DNA of 64,000 nucleotides from a virus (Duplodnaviria > Caudoviricetes). The stretch lies in the IMG/VR virus record IMGVR_UViG_3300031992_000011, one strand, 5' to 3'. How positions within the stretch are numbered: position 1 is the first letter of the stretch; each line of letters starts with the position of its first letter. Below are positions 3,510-51,241 of this stretch, piece by piece. Made by a program: the position numbers and the translations under genes. The notes under the pieces are model-generated. The model was given only the letters and a program-made list of their open reading frames with translations. It did not search any database and was not told the DNA's origin.

Positions 3510-3752
3510 ATGGAAAGAATTAGTGAAGCACGTCTTAGGAAGATAGTGAAGGAAAGTGTAAGGCATGCGCTGAATGAAGGGACAACAAACCAGGAAGACT
3601 TCAACATATGCGACGAGATATTCGACATGTGGACAGGTAGGCAAGTCTGGGAGTTCATCTACAACATGCTGAACAGTGACCAGATACACGAGATAGCGGA
3701 AGAGCTTGTCGACGCCGGTTTCTACGACGACGGATACGACACGGAAGAATGA
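3510..3752 (+). CDS. small acidic protein, putative internal head protein
   Basis: ATG 3510 follows an A-rich leader. N-terminal ISEARLRKIVKESVRHALNE helix, then an acidic remainder. TATTTAT at 3476. Confidence 0.7.
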   Translation: MERISEARLRKIVKESVRHALNEGTTNQEDFNICDEIFDMWTGRQVWEFIYNMLNSDQIHEIAEELVDAGFYDDGYDTEE

Positions 3753-4189: not shown

Positions 4190-4732
4190 ATGAAGACAAA
4201 ACTGACGCAAAAACAAAAGTCTGTCCTCAATGAGGTGCGTTCGATGATGGACAAACTCGAGAATAACCCTTATGGCCGGACAATCGACAATCCTGAATCA
4301 GACGGTTTCGGACGGTTTAATCCGGGTAATGGACGGCCGGATATTGACAACCCGTCATTGCCGCGCATCAAGAACAGACCCACAAACGAAAAAGTTGACG
4401 AGAAACTGATCGCAGACATCAGCGAGTCTGTCATGCGTGCGCTGAACGAAATGAACTACAACGGCATCGACGACATAATCGAAACCGCATATAATGACTA
4501 CGACTGCGGGCAGAAATACTGGGAGATTGTGCGCATGCTGCGCAAGAAAGTGGAACATGGCACCGAACTGGACCTTGGCGTACTATACAAGTCGTCAATG
4601 ATGGACAAATATTGCCGTTTCTGCTACCGTAAACTTGGAATAGGAAGACGAGACATAAATCCTAACAGTTCGCCTCAGATGTTCAAGAGGACGATGGCGA
4701 AACGAATGATAGATGACGTTTACAATTATTAA
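4190..4732 (+). CDS. hypothetical protein, putative internal head protein
   Basis: 180-aa ORF carrying VLNEVRSMM and LIADISESVMRALNE motifs. Confidence 0.7.
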   Translation: MKTKLTQKQKSVLNEVRSMMDKLENNPYGRTIDNPESDGFGRFNPGNGRPDIDNPSLPRIKNRPTNEKVDEKLIADISESVMRALNEMNYNGIDDIIETAYNDYDCGQKYWEIVRMLRKKVEHGTELDLGVLYKSSMMDKYCRFCYRKLGIGRRDINPNSSPQMFKRTMAKRMIDDVYNY

Positions 4733-5476: not shown

Positions 5477-5990
5477 GTTTCTGTTCCTCCAACAATTTTA
5501 TGTGGCATTCGCCACACGCCATCGCGTCGTCAATCGCGGAATGGTGCTTTTCGAGAATGACACCGAGTCTGTCGCATACGCTGTCCAATGTGTGCGTGCT
5601 GATGTCCGTGAGCAGACTGCGGCTTTCTTTCAGCGTGTCTATATACCGGTAATCCGAATTGGTGCCGAAAAAATCAGAGCATGCGTTGATGCAGCTTTTC
5701 TCGAACGCGGCGTTGTGCGCCACGATCGGACTGTCGCCTATCATCTTGTCGACAGTTTCCCACACCGAAGGAAATGAAGGCGCGTCCTTCACGTCGTCAT
5801 AGCACAAACCGTGTGTCATGACGCAGTAGTAATTTTCGCTTTTAGACGGCGGGCATACGAGACTGTGAAATTTCTCAACAGGTCTGCCATTCTCAAAAAC
5901 AACACAACCGACGCTGCACACAGTAGCGCGCCACGTGTCAAGAATTTCAAAGTCCAACGCAACAAACCTGTCTTTCCGTCCATCATCCAT
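5469..5990 (-). CDS. 3'-5' exonuclease, DEDDh family (DNA pol III epsilon-like)
   Basis: ExoI FVALDFE, ExoII AHNAAFE and ExoIII HHSAIDDA. TGATG coupling to the helicase stop. Confidence 0.9.
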   Translation of the reverse strand: MDDGRKDRFVALDFEILDTWRATVCSVGCVVFENGRPVEKFHSLVCPPSKSENYYCVMTHGLCYDDVKDAPSFPSVWETVDKMIGDSPIVAHNAAFEKSCINACSDFFGTNSDYRYIDTLKESRSLLTDISTHTLDSVCDRLGVILEKHHSAIDDAMACGECHIKLLEEQKHG

Positions 5991-8005
5991 CACTTGTCCT
6001 TTTCAGCATTGATGACCGTGTCCATGATCAGTTCCTTACGCATCACCTTCTCGAACATGTCCTGCGAAACAGAGTCGGTGAACAGCTGATATATGCAGAG
6101 GGCATCCTTCTTCTGCGTTATGCGGTAGATTCGGTCCTGTGCCTGTTTGTTGTCAGCCGCCGACCAAGAGTACGAGTTGAAGATGAGATAACGCGCAGAG
6201 GTCAGCGTGAGGCCAAGCGACATGGCTGCCTCCTGACCAATGAACACCTTTGTCTTCTTGTCGGTCATAAAAGCGTTCTCCGCCTTGTCCTTCTGTTTCG
6301 GAGTCATCTTTCCGTCATAGGTCACGCACTTCTTGCCGAAGTGTTCCTTTAACTTCCTGATTTCTTCCGAAAAGTTGCACACGATGATGACTTTCTCCCC
6401 GTCTTCGAGAATGTCTTCTGCAAGTTCTATCGTGTGCGGCACCATTGCCTCGGCAAGATACTTCCGGACAAGTGTCCCCTCGATGAGTTGCTTGTACTCC
6501 TCGTTGCTCTCATCGCCGTTCTCCACCCTGGCGTTCACGTACTCGTCCCAAAGTCTGTCGTATTCCGACTTCTCTTCGGGGGTCAGGTCGTAATACCGTG
6601 AAGTTACGGTCTTGTTGACCATTCCCGGTATGTCGCGTGAGAGACGCCTGATGTAAAGATGCTTTATGGCTTCGCCGAGTTCCTCGAGATTTGACGACCC
6701 TTGCGGAATAGTCATTATCTTCGCGTTGTCCCGTATGAATGCCACGCAGTCACCTCTCATCGACCCGCTCATGGTGTCCCACGAGCAGTGGTTTTTCCTT
6801 TCGTAGACCGTGCGCCACTTCACCCAATCACCCGGTTTCATCATCTCCTTTCCGTCGCAGTAACGGTTCACATATCTCACATAATCCTGTGTCACCGGCG
6901 CATTGATGAGTCGCAGTATGTGATACAGGTTCATCGGCGTGTTTGTGAGCGGTGTACCTGACAAAAGGAACACATACTCGACACCGGTCTTTGAAAGAAA
7001 GTCGGAGATTACGGCGTAGCGTATTGACGTGTTGTTCGACAGTTTCTGTGCCTCGTCGATTATCACACAGTCGAATTTCGACTGGTAAAGCGGAGAGTTC
7101 GCCAACGCCTTCTGTATGGCGTCCTTTTTCCGTGTCTTGACCATCTTCGGTATCTCCTCGCCGGTCTTTTTGTCGACCTTAAATTCCGGTACCTTCAGTT
7201 TCTCGGTCTTACCGTCTTTCCCGACGATGATTTCTTCACGATACTTCTGCTCATAGGCCACCTCATAGTACCTCTGCACTATGTCGTAGTTTATGACGGT
7301 GAACAGTGATGTCTCTCCGTCCCATAACGACCCGCTTACGACCTTGCAGTCGGACTCGTCACTTGTGTAAAGCGCTATCTCGCGCCGCCATGTCGACTTA
7401 AGCGACGCTGTCGTTATCACAAGTATGCGTTTCGCTCCGCTCTCGAGCGCGGCGACAACGGCTTGACTTGTCTTTCCGAGTCCGGGTTCGTCAGCAAGGA
7501 TGCATCGCTTGTTCGTCAACAAGAACTTCACGCCGTCGCGCTGATGCTCCTTCAGTTTTCTCCCCGGTGTCATCGAGTCGTACTTGTCAAAGTCCACCTC
7601 CAACGACTTGTAGTCTGAATTGTCGTTCAGGTCGGTGAGAATGAACCTTTTGCCTATAAACATCAGTTGTGGCGGAACTGACTTGCGGTACTGAGCGTAG
7701 CAGTGATAACTTCCTCCCATCTCCCCGATGATGCTTGCGAGCCATAATTTTACCGGTGTAAAGTCGAGGTTGAATTTGCTGCGCATCTGCTCCCCGTAGT
7801 CGCCTGACAATCTCACAAGTTTATTGACATCGCGTCTACTGTAGTTCGCATTGCTGATGATGTACTCCGTGTTGAAATCACCTTCAGCGAGCAAGAGGCG
7901 ACCACTCTCATACATACGCTTGAAACGAAGAATATACTCGTTACTGCCTGTGTATGAGCGTAATATTGAATACGCTTTGGTTATGTCACTCTCTTTTTTC
8001 GCCAT
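5990..8005 (-). CDS. SNF2-family helicase/ATPase
   Basis: LADEPGLGKT, IIDEAQ, LSGTP and QAQDRIYRITQ. Start set at ATG 8005 (MAKKESD). Confidence 0.92.
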   Translation of the reverse strand: MAKKESDITKAYSILRSYTGSNEYILRFKRMYESGRLLLAEGDFNTEYIISNANYSRRDVNKLVRLSGDYGEQMRSKFNLDFTPVKLWLASIIGEMGGSYHCYAQYRKSVPPQLMFIGKRFILTDLNDNSDYKSLEVDFDKYDSMTPGRKLKEHQRDGVKFLLTNKRCILADEPGLGKTSQAVVAALESGAKRILVITTASLKSTWRREIALYTSDESDCKVVSGSLWDGETSLFTVINYDIVQRYYEVAYEQKYREEIIVGKDGKTEKLKVPEFKVDKKTGEEIPKMVKTRKKDAIQKALANSPLYQSKFDCVIIDEAQKLSNNTSIRYAVISDFLSKTGVEYVFLLSGTPLTNTPMNLYHILRLINAPVTQDYVRYVNRYCDGKEMMKPGDWVKWRTVYERKNHCSWDTMSGSMRGDCVAFIRDNAKIMTIPQGSSNLEELGEAIKHLYIRRLSRDIPGMVNKTVTSRYYDLTPEEKSEYDRLWDEYVNARVENGDESNEEYKQLIEGTLVRKYLAEAMVPHTIELAEDILEDGEKVIIVCNFSEEIRKLKEHFGKKCVTYDGKMTPKQKDKAENAFMTDKKTKVFIGQEAAMSLGLTLTSARYLIFNSYSWSAADNKQAQDRIYRITQKKDALCIYQLFTDSVSQDMFEKVMRKELIMDTVINAEKDK

Positions 8006-8057: not shown

Positions 8058-8120
8058 AAATCAAGTGCTTTCTTTAGATTTTTTAACTTTCTTGTTCCAA
8101 CGGAAGTATATTTACCTGTG

Positions 8121-9392
8121 ATGGAAAACAACGGAACATATGTGATATTCACGGCGCAGAACGTGGACGATCCGGCGGAACTCATGCGCCGCTATCCGAG
8201 CGCGCTGCCGAACAAATACTATCATCACTCGACGAACCGTTTCGGCAGGCAGCCTTTTGACGACCGCGAGGGAGAACCGATGCGGTTGCACATAACAGGG
8301 AGGCTCGTAACAGACAGAGTGGACGCTCTTGTCGTGGACAATCCTAACAGTGACAACGAAATACCGCACATAACGCTCGCAACCGCTGACGGAGTGAAAC
8401 CTTTCGCCAGCAACGCGGAACTCAAGGCGCACTATGCGGACATAGAACCGCTTGACGACTATGTGGACACAACATTCCGCAACAACATGTCGCGCAGCAG
8501 AAAAAATGAATCATTCCTTCGTCCGTCGATGCCGTTGAACGAGAAAAAGGGGGGTCACAACTACGCAGGACGCGACGACGAGTTCTACACGCGTCCGGAA
8601 GACATCGAACGGGAGTTGTCAAACTATGACCTCAGCGGAAAGGTCGTGTACTGCAACTGCGACGTCCCTTCAATGTCGGAATTTTACAAGTTCTTCAAGA
8701 ACAACTATGACTCCCTGAGATTAAGTGGACTTGTCGCCACCTACTACTCCGACACTCCATGTATGTACTGGTTCAACGGAGACTCTGAAAGGAAAATTCC
8801 GATAAAATCGGGACGCTTCCAAGACAATGAAAGGATTATGCGGATGTGTGACGTGGTGGTCACAAACCCGCCTTTCTCAGATTCAATGCCACATCAACTT
8901 GTGAATATGGCAAGGAAAATGGGTAAAGATGTAATCATTGTTGGGCCGTTGGACATGGCGCGGAGGAACGACATGTTCGAATTGGTAAAAAGCGGAAAAC
9001 TTAACTACGGACACAGTCCCATAAACAGATACAGAAGAGACGGAGAAAAATCACGGACAGCGCCGACCGCTTGGTGGACCACATTTCCGGTTGAACGCGG
9101 AAATTATTCCACAGGAAAGTCATACAATCCTTCAAGATACAGAAAATACGACAATTATGACGCTATCGAGTGTCCGCGTTACAGTGATTTACCTGACGAT
9201 TATGACGGAAAAATAGGGGTTCCTTGGAGGTTTCTCGGAAAACTTGACAGGCGCCAATATGATGTCGTAGACAAGATAAGGCCAAGACTTGACGGCAAGA
9301 ATCTGGATACAAGACTGATAATCCAACGGAAGAGCGTCACCGAAGCGCTTGTCAGAAGGATAACTGAAATGATAATGAGGAAACTTTTTTGA
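8121..9392 (+). CDS. fusion of a 2H phosphoesterase domain and an EcoRI-family adenine DNA methyltransferase
   Basis: N-terminal part has two HxT motifs (HHST, PHITLATADGVKP..SN). C-terminal part has DEFYT..DIE.EL, KVVYCNCD, DVVVTNPPFS and YDNYDAI. Start set at ATG 8121. Confidence 0.8.
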   Translation: MENNGTYVIFTAQNVDDPAELMRRYPSALPNKYYHHSTNRFGRQPFDDREGEPMRLHITGRLVTDRVDALVVDNPNSDNEIPHITLATADGVKPFASNAELKAHYADIEPLDDYVDTTFRNNMSRSRKNESFLRPSMPLNEKKGGHNYAGRDDEFYTRPEDIERELSNYDLSGKVVYCNCDVPSMSEFYKFFKNNYDSLRLSGLVATYYSDTPCMYWFNGDSERKIPIKSGRFQDNERIMRMCDVVVTNPPFSDSMPHQLVNMARKMGKDVIIVGPLDMARRNDMFELVKSGKLNYGHSPINRYRRDGEKSRTAPTAWWTTFPVERGNYSTGKSYNPSRYRKYDNYDAIECPRYSDLPDDYDGKIGVPWRFLGKLDRRQYDVVDKIRPRLDGKNLDTRLIIQRKSVTEALVRRITEMIMRKLF

Positions 9393-14600: not shown

Positions 14601-14922
14601 GAGCCAGCTGAACAAGATTTCGAAACGCAGGCTGTTGCTGCACATACGCAAACTCTGCGCAATCGCAGGAATCGGACTCATTTTCGACCCGAACGACAAC
14701 ACGACCAAGCAGTCATTCGAGAGTGCGGTCAAACCGATACTTGACAATGTCCTCAGCAACAGGGGCATCATTGATTGGAGACTTGAGATTGACGACAGCC
14801 AGGAGGCAAGGGACAGACTGGAACTTCCTTGCAAGATATATCTCAAACTCACCCCGAATTTGGAATATATCACAATCGACTTCATTGTCACTCCGAGCGG
14901 TGTTTCGTTCGACGACATTTGA
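11620..14922 (+). CDS. contractile tail sheath protein (gp18-like)
   Basis: SPGVYTKETD, GETVKGPAFQP, TYYPWV and PWFPAAGWNRG motifs, plus a C-terminal LEYITIDFIVT. Confidence 0.95.
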   Translation: MGNNNSARQTHVSPGVYTKETDLTYASKSLGITTLGVAGETVKGPAFQPMMVENWREFQRLFGGTDASKFRGSQYPKYELPYIAQSYLKQSNQMYVCRVLGLSGVNAGPAWIVSAAANAIKTKDYDKTVISVIRSRGEHEKAHKVKDANPEQGICEDVYQFDGIKYYAKDVMLIPSADLTYNDGCNDSFDSKTGDFTVDAMNYGRFTILVLVDDSEESKTKWENYKINAKTMLDDSSTTEEQWAQFRDTVSKDEIVSVYSVSLNPGEKNYILNILGGDPENGDAEIYVEELYDVALKQLIEGGDIDAINHELVHFENRNIIPKYKAVNDVLTEIEDTLTRKDIGKRFLYVGALSVDEDGKPIPVHKTTDNGVTYTECAGQEGGIYKVVAYTKDNGTREYYYVLSQDKGKQDEILGDYEQHLENKDNPGVFEEAVRSMSDNTYYVMAKDKDNNLKVTAITIDMNNYKEEYRYASTPWIVSELKGSANYVELKTLFRFHTISDGNMSNTEVKVSIENINPTYGTFDVVVRDFYDTDASPVVYERFRGVNLVPGDKNYIAMRIGSSDEKYVTVSSYITVEVNENDVTKTSIPAGFLGYPVRNYAGFGLYKSEFSDGEKLKNPYLRYNTNVDDDIRIGKQYFGLSDLTGIDEDVLKYKGFEAYNGIPTGYTPGFHLDSRIFSGKPDENGVVELDGIKQTVTVDGVAGYEWVTVGAGNVTAFGEEPRIGTDDVMMNTIYEDKRYRKFTLAFYGGWDGWDYYRTARSNGDEFKYLRYKGNINLESGEGDNFSVIREPELYNFDKDEKVINSDWYAYMSAIRAFANPRDYDINVFATPGIDYVNNNSLVGETITMIEEERADSIYVVTTPDKPFGASDSRADMYSPSDAVDNLEDSEIDSNYACTYYPWVKYFDPDNSVYLYLPPTRDVVKNMALTDNTRFPWFPAAGWNRGDLDTTAVSPKMSLKLKEQDELYAGRINFINKFAQDGMKIWGDNNLQVVESQLNKISKRRLLLHIRKLCAIAGIGLIFDPNDNTTKQSFESAVKPILDNVLSNRGIIDWRLEIDDSQEARDRLELPCKIYLKLTPNLEYITIDFIVTPSGVSFDDI

Positions 14923-14947
14923 TATCGTACAAACGGAAAAAAGAAAG

Positions 14948-14984
14948 AAAATTGACGGGTGACGAATGTCATCCGTCAATTTTT
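14948..14984. terminator. bidirectional intrinsic terminator after the sheath gene
   Basis: AAAATTGACGGGTGAC-gaat-GTCATCCGTCAATTTT with A/T tracts on both sides. Confidence 0.85.
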
Positions 14985-15061
14985 GTGACGTGATGGACTG
15001 TTTATTGGGAAAATGACAAAGAACGAACATAAAAAATAGCAGGGTCAACAGATATATAGAC

Positions 15062-15103
15062 AAAAAAAGGTCGGATGAAAACACATCCGACCTTCTGTTT
15101 TTT
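15062..15103. terminator. intrinsic terminator
   Basis: AAGGTCGGATG...CATCCGACCTT flanked by A and T tracts. Confidence 0.8.
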
Positions 15104-15124
15104 GTGATTCACGCTTATCGTCTA

Positions 15125-15379
15125 TCAACCCTTCGCCAGGAACATGATTCCACCGAATGCACCACCGGCAATAGCGCCGATAAGTTCGACGATAATGTAT
15201 TTCAGTCTGTCGCTTGTCCACTCTTCACGTCCCCACTCATAAGACCCGACAGTAGCGACACCTGTGTAGATACCAGCTACGATGGCAGCGCCAACAGACT
15301 GGCCGATGAGGAAAGTCAGGATTCCGCACACTATAGCGATAAGAGCCGGAACCAGGAATTTAAACAAATAATCCATCAT
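15125..15379 (-). CDS. small multi-pass membrane protein
   Basis: 84 aa with three hydrophobic Gly/Ala-rich helices. Confidence 0.75.
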   Translation of the reverse strand: MMDYLFKFLVPALIAIVCGILTFLIGQSVGAAIVAGIYTGVATVGSYEWGREEWTSDRLKYIIVELIGAIAGGAFGGIMFLAKG

Positions 15380-15446
15380 TGTTTTAGAAAAAATTAAAAA
15401 TTATCATAGTGAATATAGTGACCGTCCGCAATGGTTGTCAACAGCA

Positions 15447-15800
15447 TCACTTTCCTTTGCCTATTTCGACGGACTTGTCAAGTATCTGCCAAATCTTCTT
15501 GAGGACGTCATACTGCGGTGATTCGGGCGTGTTCGCCAGTTTGGCGAGCCCCTGTATGGCGATCTGCCTTATTTGGTTCATATAACCGGTGACTTCCGGG
15601 TCGGCCGGTGCCTGCTGAACTTCTTCCGCGTCGTCTTCATCGTCCATGCTTGGCATCCAGTCATACCCCGGACCGTTCTCATAAGGAACAGGACCCTCTC
15701 CATCTTGTCCGAACACGACACTTTCGAGCGTGAGCGACTTTTTCCCGTCGAGCATATGGTTCATCTCATTGATGAGATTCTCATTGTGTCTTTTCTTCAT
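15447..15800 (-). CDS. hypothetical acidic protein, putative head-associated
   Basis: LINEMNHML and LTLES motifs. Minus-strand TATTTATA at 15828-15821. Confidence 0.7.
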   Translation of the reverse strand: MKKRHNENLINEMNHMLDGKKSLTLESVVFGQDGEGPVPYENGPGYDWMPSMDDEDDAEEVQQAPADPEVTGYMNQIRQIAIQGLAKLANTPESPQYDVLKKIWQILDKSVEIGKGK

Positions 15801-50047: not shown

Positions 50048-51241
50048 CTATTTCAACACTGCTTTGCGCATTTTCTTTGCAATGTCCGTCTTTTCCCACG
50101 GAAAGTACTCGATCAGGTAGCCGTGTGCGTCGAGACCGAACGGACACCACGATGAATACGAAAGATAACCGCTGACAGACGCAAATCGTTCGATTATCTT
50201 GGCCGGACGCAAGTCCACATTCTCGCGTATCCATTCGAGAAGTTTTGTCTTGACCTCCTCATTGCGGTCAATCTCCACGTCGACCGAAGAAGGCTCGGGA
50301 ACACCTATGGTATAGGACAGAGTGACCTTTGCAGTGTCCGCAATCCCGGATTCGACAATGTTCTTCGCCAGATAACGCGCCATGTATGCGCCTGAGCGGT
50401 CGACTTTCGTCAGATCCTTGCCGGAGAAAGCGCCTCCGCCAACGTTACAGTAACCGCCATAGTGGTCGACGACAATTTTGCGTCCGGTCACGCCACAGTC
50501 AGACACGCTTCCGCCGATGTTCCATGTTCCACAAGGGTTCACATCTATGATGATGTCCTTGCCGGCGATATATCGTGAGAAAACGTCATTGTCCATTCTC
50601 ATGTGGTTTCCTTTGATTTGGTTCAACACCTCGGCACGTACGTCAGAGAGCGGACACTGGTGCATTGTCGAGACGAGGATTCTCTCCACGCTGGCATTGC
50701 CATCATCGTCATACCATACGGTGACCTGTGTCTTCGTGTCCGGTCCGATTTTGTATCCCCACAGCGAAGAAACACGTTGGCATATATGTGTGGCGATATA
50801 CATTCCGAGAGGCATCCGTACGGGTGTCTCGGAGCATGCGTATCCGACCATGAAGCCTTGATCGCCTGCGCCGATGTCACCGTTCTCCTTGTCGACACCG
50901 CTGTGTATCTCGCTGGACTGCTTGCCGATAAGGTTGATCACCTTGATGTTGTCAGGGGCGAGGTTGTGGTTGGAAGGGTACATGCTGACACCGTCGAAGT
51001 TGCCGGCAAACGCGTCCCTGACGATGTTGTCGACGTCCACCTTGGCGCTTGAGTGGACCTCGCCTCCAAGCACGACAATATTGTCCTTGACCATAGTTTC
51101 GATGCCGCATCTCGCATAAGGATCCTTTCTCACATAAGCATCCACGAGGTTGTCGCTGATCCAGTCAGCCATCTTGTCCGGATGTCCTTCACTCACACAT
51201 TCACATACAACATACTTTCCTTTAATCTTTTCCATTGTCAT
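50048..51241 (-). CDS. metK: S-adenosylmethionine synthetase
   Basis: E.VSEGHPDK, GAGDQG, D.G.TGRKI.VD.YGG and GGGAFSGKD.TKVDRS. Confidence 0.97.
   Translation of the reverse strand: MTMEKIKGKYVVCECVSEGHPDKMADWISDNLVDAYVRKDPYARCGIETMVKDNIVVLGGEVHSSAKVDVDNIVRDAFAGNFDGVSMYPSNHNLAPDNIKVINLIGKQSSEIHSGVDKENGDIGAGDQGFMVGYACSETPVRMPLGMYIATHICQRVSSLWGYKIGPDTKTQVTVWYDDDGNASVERILVSTMHQCPLSDVRAEVLNQIKGNHMRMDNDVFSRYIAGKDIIIDVNPCGTWNIGGSVSDCGVTGRKIVVDHYGGYCNVGGGAFSGKDLTKVDRSGAYMARYLAKNIVESGIADTAKVTLSYTIGVPEPSSVDVEIDRNEEVKTKLLEWIRENVDLRPAKIIERFASVSGYLSYSSWCPFGLDAHGYLIEYFPWEKTDIAKKMRKAVLK

What the first reader, a model, noticed from the sequence alone, without database searches (positions are those of the whole stretch)
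8121..9392. 2H phosphoesterase + DNA methyltransferase polyprotein with late-gene and head-protein signatures: candidate virion-delivered double counter-defence protein
Seen: residues ~1-125 carry two HxT motifs (HST near 8226, HIT near 8367). A linker with KNE/LNE follows, then an EcoRI-family adenine MTase (NPPF at 8865-8876), then a terminal helix VTEALVRRITEMIMRKLF. The gene sits behind TATTTAC and 3 nt ahead of neck/tail genes, unlike the other MTase, which is under a host-type promoter. Established: 2H phosphoesterases include T4 Acb1 (cleaves CBASS cyclic nucleotides) and the cyclic phosphodiesterase domains of RNA-repair enzymes, and T4 gp21 protease cleaves internal head proteins after L/I-x-E. 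Inference: the protein is packaged, cut at LNE into two enzymes and injected, so one part removes cyclic-nucleotide signals or heals 2',3'-cyclic RNA ends while the other methylates incoming DNA against restriction. I do not know of this fusion being described.
Basis: partly seen in the sequence, partly recalled or inferred. Interest (0 to 1): 0.85.

Follow-up and report, generated by a model that had tools for sequence, protein, structure and literature searches.

The report
Tagged phosphodiesterase–methylase phage cargo fusion
A large uncultured bacteriophage, probably of gut Bacteroidota, encodes one protein joining a cyclic-phosphate-cutting enzyme to an EcoRI-type DNA methylase, with short tags and cut sites suggesting it is loaded into the phage head, cut apart and injected to help the phage survive host defences; packaging has not been shown.

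Summary
The 423-aa fusion is real: it recurs in an independent assembly (99%) and two divergent phages (59-64%) at the same locus. Residues 1-125 form a 2H phosphoesterase, but of the CNPase/tRNA-ligase-CPD type (Z 12.5), not Acb1-like (Z 6.8). Residues ~150-400 are an intact orphan EcoRI-family adenine methyltransferase. The gene is an accessory insert behind the neck operon's existing TATTTA late element. The cargo reading gains real support. All 75 methyltransferases of this phage clade start just after a hydrophobic-x-Glu site (5/38 in classical relatives). Their leaders switch to match each host phage's own tag. Relatives encode a T4 gp21-like protease and carry the same helix on their scaffold. 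The nearest 2H relatives sit inside crAss-phage cargo proteins. KNE is not a cleavage site, and the linker helix is eroded here. Both domains swap partners freely, so they are probably co-delivered rather than coupled. Packaging, cleavage, substrates and methylation target are untested. The scan noted similar tagged-cargo systems in other phages. Verdict: new variant of T4 internal-protein/polyvalent cargo; interest 0.55.

The parts
8109..8115 (+). TATTTA(C) late-promoter-like element, shared with the neck operon of relatives that lack this gene
   Evidence: also upstream of the fusion in L002/L003 and L095
8121..8495 (+). 2H phosphoesterase domain (aa 1-125), CNPase/fungal tRNA-ligase CPD type; HST at 8226, HIT at 8367
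8496..8570 (+). Disordered linker (aa 126-150) with LNE (8535-8543), the conserved hydrophobic-x-Glu site before the methyltransferase; the tag helix present here in orthologues is largely deleted
8571..9335 (+). EcoRI-family N6-adenine DNA methyltransferase (DEFYT, YCNCD, NPPF at 8865-8876 intact), phage-specific clade
9336..9392 (+). C-terminal V-T-E site plus amphipathic tag helix (aa 406-423), like the lineage's cargo leader and scaffold N-terminal helix
9396..9914 (+). Conserved 172-aa gene, probably a neck/head-tail joining protein; first gene of the late operon into which the fusion inserted
5990..8005 (-). Divergent SNF2 helicase gene, the left boundary of the insertion site

Best explanation
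A late-expressed, two-module internal head protein of a large T4-like myophage, probably infecting gut Bacteroidota. Shown: two intact enzyme domains, a late-type element, processing-type sites on both sides of the methyltransferase, a tag helix, and recurrence in related phages. Inferred: an amphipathic helix like the scaffold's N-terminal helix recruits the protein into the prohead core. The gp21-like protease then cuts after LNE (141) and probably after VTE (408), freeing the 2H enzyme and the methyltransferase, and both are ejected with the DNA. The methyltransferase would methylate an unknown short site on phage DNA against host restriction. The 2H enzyme would hydrolyse 2',3'-cyclic phosphates (cut RNA ends or 2',3'-cNMPs) to 2'-phosphates, as CNPase does. 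The two are independent cargo modules that came to share one tag and one promoter, not a coupled machine.
For: Hydrophobic-x-Glu lies 9-14 residues before the methyltransferase start in 75/75 members of this clade, against 5/38 classical members and 14% background; these form one branch, 32/32, SH-aLRT 100. The leader changes with the host phage: a long helix leader in this lineage, but a T4-CTS-like MKxIxxYIxE in L011, shared with its TATTTA-driven neighbour. A second, distant EcoRI-like clade in the same phage group also carries helix + site. Stand-alone 2H relatives carry the same leaders. The tagged 2H branch nests among domains from giant ART-PolyVal proteins, at least one being a crAss 'RNAP-associated protein fused to zincin protease' homologue; crAss RNAP-associated proteins are mass-spectrometry-detected virion cargo (PMC10172136). 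Six of nine related genomes encode an S77 prohead protease. Their capsid protein has I-Y-E/A at residue 60 and their scaffolds start with the same helix. The helix leader is enriched behind TATTTA (23/44 vs 228/961, p 1e-4). The linker is disordered. Window vs L001 differ at 16 synonymous and 6 non-synonymous codons. T4 precedent: gp21 cuts after L/I-X-E, and Alt loses both termini (PMC9026906).
Against: No virion proteomics, expression or activity data exist for this uncultured lineage. The 75/75 count is one inherited origin, not 75 events. The window protein has no N-terminal leader, and its linker helix is eroded (score -4.9; the C-terminal helix scores only 9.7 against a threshold of 9.2). 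Glu-containing amphipathic helices are common. The TATTTA element predates the insertion. The head genes were seen in relatives, not in this window. An injected methyltransferase must refold and outrun restriction. GAATTC usage gives no signal for the target.
Confidence: 0.55

Rival explanations
1. Late but not injected: the protein works in the producer cell, methylating progeny DNA before or during packaging (possibly tethered to the prohead by the tag), and the 2H domain clears cyclic phosphates late in infection.
For: Late element and position. The window encodes a SAM synthetase at 50048-51241, which would serve methylation in the producer cell. Pre-methylated virion DNA protects better than methylation after entry (general knowledge).
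Against: Conserved processing-type sites and lineage-matched leaders are not needed for a cytoplasmic enzyme. The 2H domain's nearest relatives lie in crAss cargo-type proteins.
Confidence: 0.25
2. Packaged as proposed, but the 2H domain is an Acb1-like enzyme that destroys CBASS or type III CRISPR cyclic oligonucleotides.
For: It has the 2H fold, and Acb1 is the next fold class (Z 6.7-6.8). Iyer et al. 2017 proposed signal degradation for 2H domains in polyvalent proteins. Phage 2H enzymes vary widely in substrate (10.1101/2025.08.21.671373). No RNA ligase or kinase gene lies beside it.
Against: CNPase Z 12.5 (rmsd 2.5, 122 aligned) and Trl1 entry 6u05 Z 11.3 far exceed Acb1. 88/114 homologues hit tRNA_lig_CPD, 1/114 Acb1. 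Atlas relatives are fused to HAD_SAK_1, AAA_33 and CCA/poly(A) polymerase RNA-repair domains.
Confidence: 0.15
3. The tags are vestigial in this copy: two former cargo genes fused and the protein persists as an ordinary cytoplasmic accessory enzyme, uncut.
For: About 8 residues of the linker helix are lost relative to P0003 and L095. There is no N-terminal leader. An NPP-deleted, presumably dead relative (P0059) shows this module can decay.
Against: LNE and the C-terminal site plus helix are kept; catalytic motifs are intact; changes are mostly synonymous.
Confidence: 0.1
4. Assembly artefact joining two genes.
For: None found; raw reads could not be examined.
Against: The same open fusion occurs in four other contigs from independent samples at 59-99% identity, with the same synteny.
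Confidence: 0.01

Closest known systems
T4 internal head proteins IPI-IPIII and Alt, with capsid targeting sequence and gp21 cleavage (PMC9958956, PMC9026906)
   Same: Late, accessory proteins with L/I-x-E-type sites; the lineage has a gp21-like protease, scaffold and gp23-like capsid protein; counter-restriction purpose as for IPI*; terminal propeptides as in Alt.
   Different: The tag is a 15-25-residue amphipathic helix placed at either end or between domains, not a 10-aa N-terminal CTS. The cargo is two enzymes in one chain. Packaging is not shown.
Polyvalent proteins of phages and conjugative elements (Iyer et al. 2017, PMC5512222)
   Same: Unrelated conflict enzymes in one chain near virion genes; 2H and adenine methylase domains are both listed components; partners seen here (ART-PolyVal, zincin-like, PBECR3) are typical.
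   Different: Their methylase is DarB-type (EcoKI/TaqI-like, fused to an SF2 helicase and LPD36); 'EcoRI' does not occur in that paper. This protein is small and would be cut by the head protease rather than a zincin.
Phage P1 DarB
   Same: Virion-borne adenine methyltransferase domain protecting injected DNA from restriction.
   Different: Different methylase family, no helicase, no DarA/Hdf system seen.
CNPase / fungal Trl1 CPD
   Same: Closest fold (Z 11-12.5) and Pfam family of the 2H domain.
   Different: Minimal 120-aa version without kinase or ligase, 10-17% identity; activity untested.
Acb1 (T4, FBB1)
   Same: 2H superfamily, phage-encoded, two HxT motifs.
   Different: Much lower structural match (Z 6.8, rmsd 4.0); no Pfam Acb1 hit for this protein.
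M.EcoRI family (PF13651)
   Same: All catalytic and SAM-binding motifs present.
   Different: Orphan; separate phage clade with a leader and shorter internal loops; target unknown.

Membership tests
2H phosphoesterase superfamily | Two conserved HxT/S motifs | tested here: met
   H36-T38 and H83-T85 conserved in 114 homologues
2H phosphoesterase superfamily | 2H fold | tested here: met
   Model pLDDT 95.9; top matches are all 2H enzymes
CNPase / tRNA-ligase CPD group | Profile match PF08302 and closest fold | tested here: met
   23.1 bits vs cut-off 23; 88/114 homologues; Z 12.5
CNPase / tRNA-ligase CPD group | Hydrolyses 2',3'-cyclic phosphate to 2'-phosphate | not testable with these tools
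   needs an enzyme assay
Acb1 | Profile match PF23474 | tested here: not met
   no hit for this domain at E 0.01; 1/114 homologues weakly
Acb1 | Acb1-like structure with lid | tested here: inconclusive
   Z 6.7-6.8, rmsd 3.7-4.0, well below CNPase; lid not examined
Acb1 | Cleaves CBASS cyclic oligonucleotides | not testable with these tools
   needs an enzyme assay
EcoRI-family adenine methyltransferase | PF13651 over cut-off with intact NPPF and SAM-binding motifs | tested here: met
   152 bits; alignment; Rossmann N6-adenine methylase fold
EcoRI-family adenine methyltransferase | GAATTC specificity | tested here: inconclusive
   GAATTC observed/expected 0.77, 1.08, 0.68 in carriers vs 0.42-1.02 in non-carriers
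Type II restriction-modification system | Adjacent restriction endonuclease | tested here: not met
   neighbours are an SNF2 helicase and a conserved structural-module gene
T4-type internal head proteins | [quoted passage not shown] | tested here: not met
   the protein starts at the 2H domain; the tag helix is C-terminal. Some homologues do have a CTS-like start
T4-type internal head proteins | L/I-x-E site at a domain boundary | tested here: met
   LNE at 139-141, position conserved across the clade
T4-type internal head proteins | gp21-like protease in the phage | tested here: inconclusive
   present in 6 of 9 related genomes; this genome's head genes lie outside the window
T4-type internal head proteins | Present and processed in virions, ejected on infection | not testable with these tools
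   uncultured phage; no proteomics found
Polyvalent proteins (Iyer 2017) | Two or more unrelated enzymatic conflict domains in one chain near virion genes | tested here: met
DarB-type methylase-helicase module | EcoKI/TaqI-like methylase fused to an SF2 helicase and LPD36 | tested here: not met
   EcoRI family, no helicase in the chain

The most novel reading that the evidence does not exclude
A whole clade of EcoRI-like methyltransferases has become dedicated virion cargo across large phages. Each enzyme takes on the host phage's own scaffold-mimicking loading tag, is cut free by the head protease and methylates the genome inside the capsid or on entry. A minimal CNPase borrowed from crAss cargo proteins rides along and counters an undescribed defence based on 2',3'-cyclic nucleotides or RNA ends.
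Probability: 0.3. Interest if true: 0.8.

Novelty: new variant of a known kind. Interest (0 to 1): 0.55.

Why it matters
If true, it gives a stand-alone, packaged DNA methyltransferase (the known precedent, P1 DarB, is a large helicase fusion) and a phage CNPase-type counter-defence enzyme whose substrate would point to a host defence that uses 2',3'-cyclic phosphates. It also supplies a sequence rule (scaffold-like helix plus hydrophobic-x-Glu) for reading the injected arsenal of uncultured jumbo phages. Both enzymes are small and directly assayable.

Tried and rejected
Sequence searches of PDB with the protein or the 2H profile found nothing useful; only fold search placed the domain. No M.EcoRI structure appeared among the fold matches, so the methyltransferase could be compared only with other N6-adenine methylases. 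No own genome is held, and L001's record cannot be searched. A JGI metagenome scan found no locus. No cultured phage carries the fusion or a close neck protein; the nearest by portal are Mel-JY01 and Flavobacterium phage immuto at 36%, with no proteomics paper found. An HMM of the tag found nothing, so a position matrix was used. Word-avoidance analysis did not reveal the methylation target. RNA-ligase partner search: RtcB in 2 of 5 relatives; the Rnl1 search had no positive control and is uninformative. Literature searches found no description of this fusion or clade, but the library lacks most subscription papers. The longer ORF from TTG 7851 and the SNF2 start at 8185 overlap each other and were rejected as mechanical extensions. 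KNE was rejected as a cleavage site. The first methyltransferase tree was the quick tree (careful search unfinished); no one-clade test was run for the second clade, which sits on a long branch. No complex prediction was run.

Full report
Setting. The window is part of a large T4-like myophage: gp13-like neck protein, tail sheath, baseplate, DnaB, anaerobic NrdD and tail lysozyme. Relatives found through the neck protein (46-71% identity for most) include contigs of 235-401 kb. A Bacteroidota host is inferred from TAnnTTTG elements before host-type genes and the lack of Shine-Dalgarno motifs (own knowledge), and a gut habitat from anaerobic NrdD and the crAss link. Neither is proven.

Observation. 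The fusion is not an assembly error. It is 99% identical in a 118.9-kb Logan contig, 64% identical in two ENA contigs and about 60% identical in another, always between a divergent SNF2 gene and (where the contig reaches) the 172-aa gene. Window and Logan copies differ at 16 synonymous and 6 non-synonymous codons, consistent with purifying selection.

The N-terminal domain. A 114-sequence alignment keeps both HxT motifs and folds at pLDDT 95.9. The best structural matches are mouse CNPase (Z 12.5, rmsd 2.5 over 122 residues) and the fungal Trl1 entry 6u05 (Z 11.3). Acb1 scores Z 6.8, rmsd 4.0. Of the homologues, 88 hit Pfam tRNA_lig_CPD and one hits Acb1. Atlas relatives are mostly viral, and some are fused to RNA-repair domains. 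It is therefore a minimal CNPase-type 2H enzyme, most likely acting on 2',3'-cyclic phosphates. Fold does not fix substrate: phage 2H enzymes differ widely (10.1101/2025.08.21.671373).

The methyltransferase. It matches PF13651 at E 2e-44, keeps the family's motifs, and folds as a Rossmann N6-adenine methylase preceded by a disordered linker and followed by a separate helix. No restriction enzyme is adjacent. Its target is unknown; GAATTC counts are uninformative.

Evidence for head cargo. (a) All 75 scorable close homologues have hydrophobic-x-Glu 9-14 residues before the conserved start, against 5 of 38 classical members and a 14% background. They form one well-supported branch, so this is one origin kept through divergence to about 40% identity. 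(b) The peptide before the site varies with the phage. It is a long amphipathic helix in this lineage, but a T4-CTS-like ten-mer in L011. There the gene lies on the opposite strand among small genes, behind TATTTA, and shares its ten-mer type with another TATTTA gene nearby. (c) A second, distant EcoRI-like group in the same phage family also carries helix plus site (long branch, independence not formally tested). (d) Stand-alone 2H relatives carry the same leaders. The tagged 2H branch nests among domains from 2,000-7,000-aa ART-PolyVal proteins. One of these is homologous to the crAss 'RNAP-associated protein fused to zincin protease', and crAss RNAP-associated proteins are virion cargo by mass spectrometry (PMC10172136). 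(e) Relatives encode portal, S77 prohead protease, scaffold and gp23-like capsid protein, in G005 all behind TATTTA. The capsid protein has I-Y-E/A at residue 60 in five genomes, and the scaffold begins with the same helix. In T4, gp21 cuts after L/I-X-E, removes 65 residues from gp23 and trims both ends of Alt (PMC9026906). (f) Across ten relatives, N-terminal helix genes are enriched behind TATTTA (odds ratio 3.5, p 1e-4, crude gene calls).

Cautions. In 14 related loci the SNF2 gene abuts the 172-aa gene with nothing between, and 7 of 8 spacers examined already carry TATTTA. The fusion therefore inserted behind an existing late element, and its neighbours say little about its role. KNE aligns with RDE in orthologues and is not a site. 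About eight residues of the linker helix are deleted in this copy, leaving LNE and the C-terminal helix. Both domains swap partners: the methyltransferase occurs alone or with zincin-like, ART-PolyVal and unknown domains, and the 2H domain with ART-PolyVal, PBECR3 and others. Most relatives have neither domain or only the methyltransferase. The pairing looks like shared delivery, not a joint mechanism. Nothing here shows packaging, cleavage or activity.

Mechanism. Most likely (0.55): late synthesis, recruitment to the prohead core by the scaffold-like helix, cutting after E141 and probably E408, and ejection. The methyltransferase then protects phage DNA from restriction, and the 2H enzyme removes 2',3'-cyclic phosphates. 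The main rival (0.25) is action in the producer cell, before or during packaging, which the phage's own SAM synthetase would suit. An Acb1-like role for a packaged 2H domain gets 0.15.

Comparison and novelty. It works like T4 internal proteins and P1 DarB, and it fits the definition of polyvalent proteins, in which 2H and adenine methylase domains were both already noted (PMC5512222). It fails membership of Acb1 by profile, of the DarB module, and of the strict T4 CTS class. I found no description of this fusion, of the tagged EcoRI-like clade or of this helix tag. The scan itself has noted tagged-cargo systems in several other phages and the same tag family in this genome; these are unchecked notes and were not counted as evidence. 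Verdict: real feature, new variant of a known kind, interest 0.55.

Noticed in passing
window 3510-3752 (+), 4190-4732 (+), 15447-15800 (-): Other small genes carry the same tag: 3510 and 4190 score 21 and 17 on the helix matrix; 15447 has L-I-N-E near its start and TATTTA upstream. No Pfam family matches the tag.
   Followed up: partly
G005:137131-138462 and scaffolds in L154, L157, L175, L181: The prohead scaffold begins with a helix ending in hydrophobic-x-Glu that resembles the cargo tag, suggesting the tag mimics the scaffold.
   Followed up: partly
L098:8765, L101:8739, L106:4254: A second, distant EcoRI-like methyltransferase group with helix leader and intact NPP motif; the genomes carrying it strongly avoid GAATTC (observed/expected 0.13-0.24).
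   Followed up: partly
window 50048-51241 (-): Phage-encoded S-adenosylmethionine synthetase, all three Pfam domains.
   Followed up: partly
P0059 (L013:8001-8804): A widespread variant of the tagged methyltransferase (27 cluster members) with a 38-residue deletion that removes the NPP catalytic motif but keeps both tags; probably inactive, yet common.
   Followed up: partly
L004-L008: In crAss-like giant proteins the 2H domain is inserted just upstream of the ART-PolyVal core, between two conserved motifs, at 58-71% identity to the alignment query; it suggests domain traffic between crAss phages and these myophages.
   Followed up: partly
L001:16950-18842: The near-identical strain has an extra 630-aa DUF723/Mom-like gene after the tail sheath that the window lacks (gap 14922-15447), probably a mobile homing-type gene.
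   Followed up: no
window 1-64000: GATC (0.37), ATCGAT (0.09), CTAG and CGCG are under-represented; several relatives lack GATC almost entirely. GC is 49% against 30-39% in most relatives.
   Followed up: no
L150:1468-2282 (Campylobacter phage F336): A 35%-identical methyltransferase homologue is annotated as two overlapping CDSs.
   Followed up: no
L001:10001-10021: In the Logan strain an upstream in-frame ATG adds seven residues ending V-M-E before the 2H domain and overlapping TATTTA; the window has ACG there.
   Followed up: no
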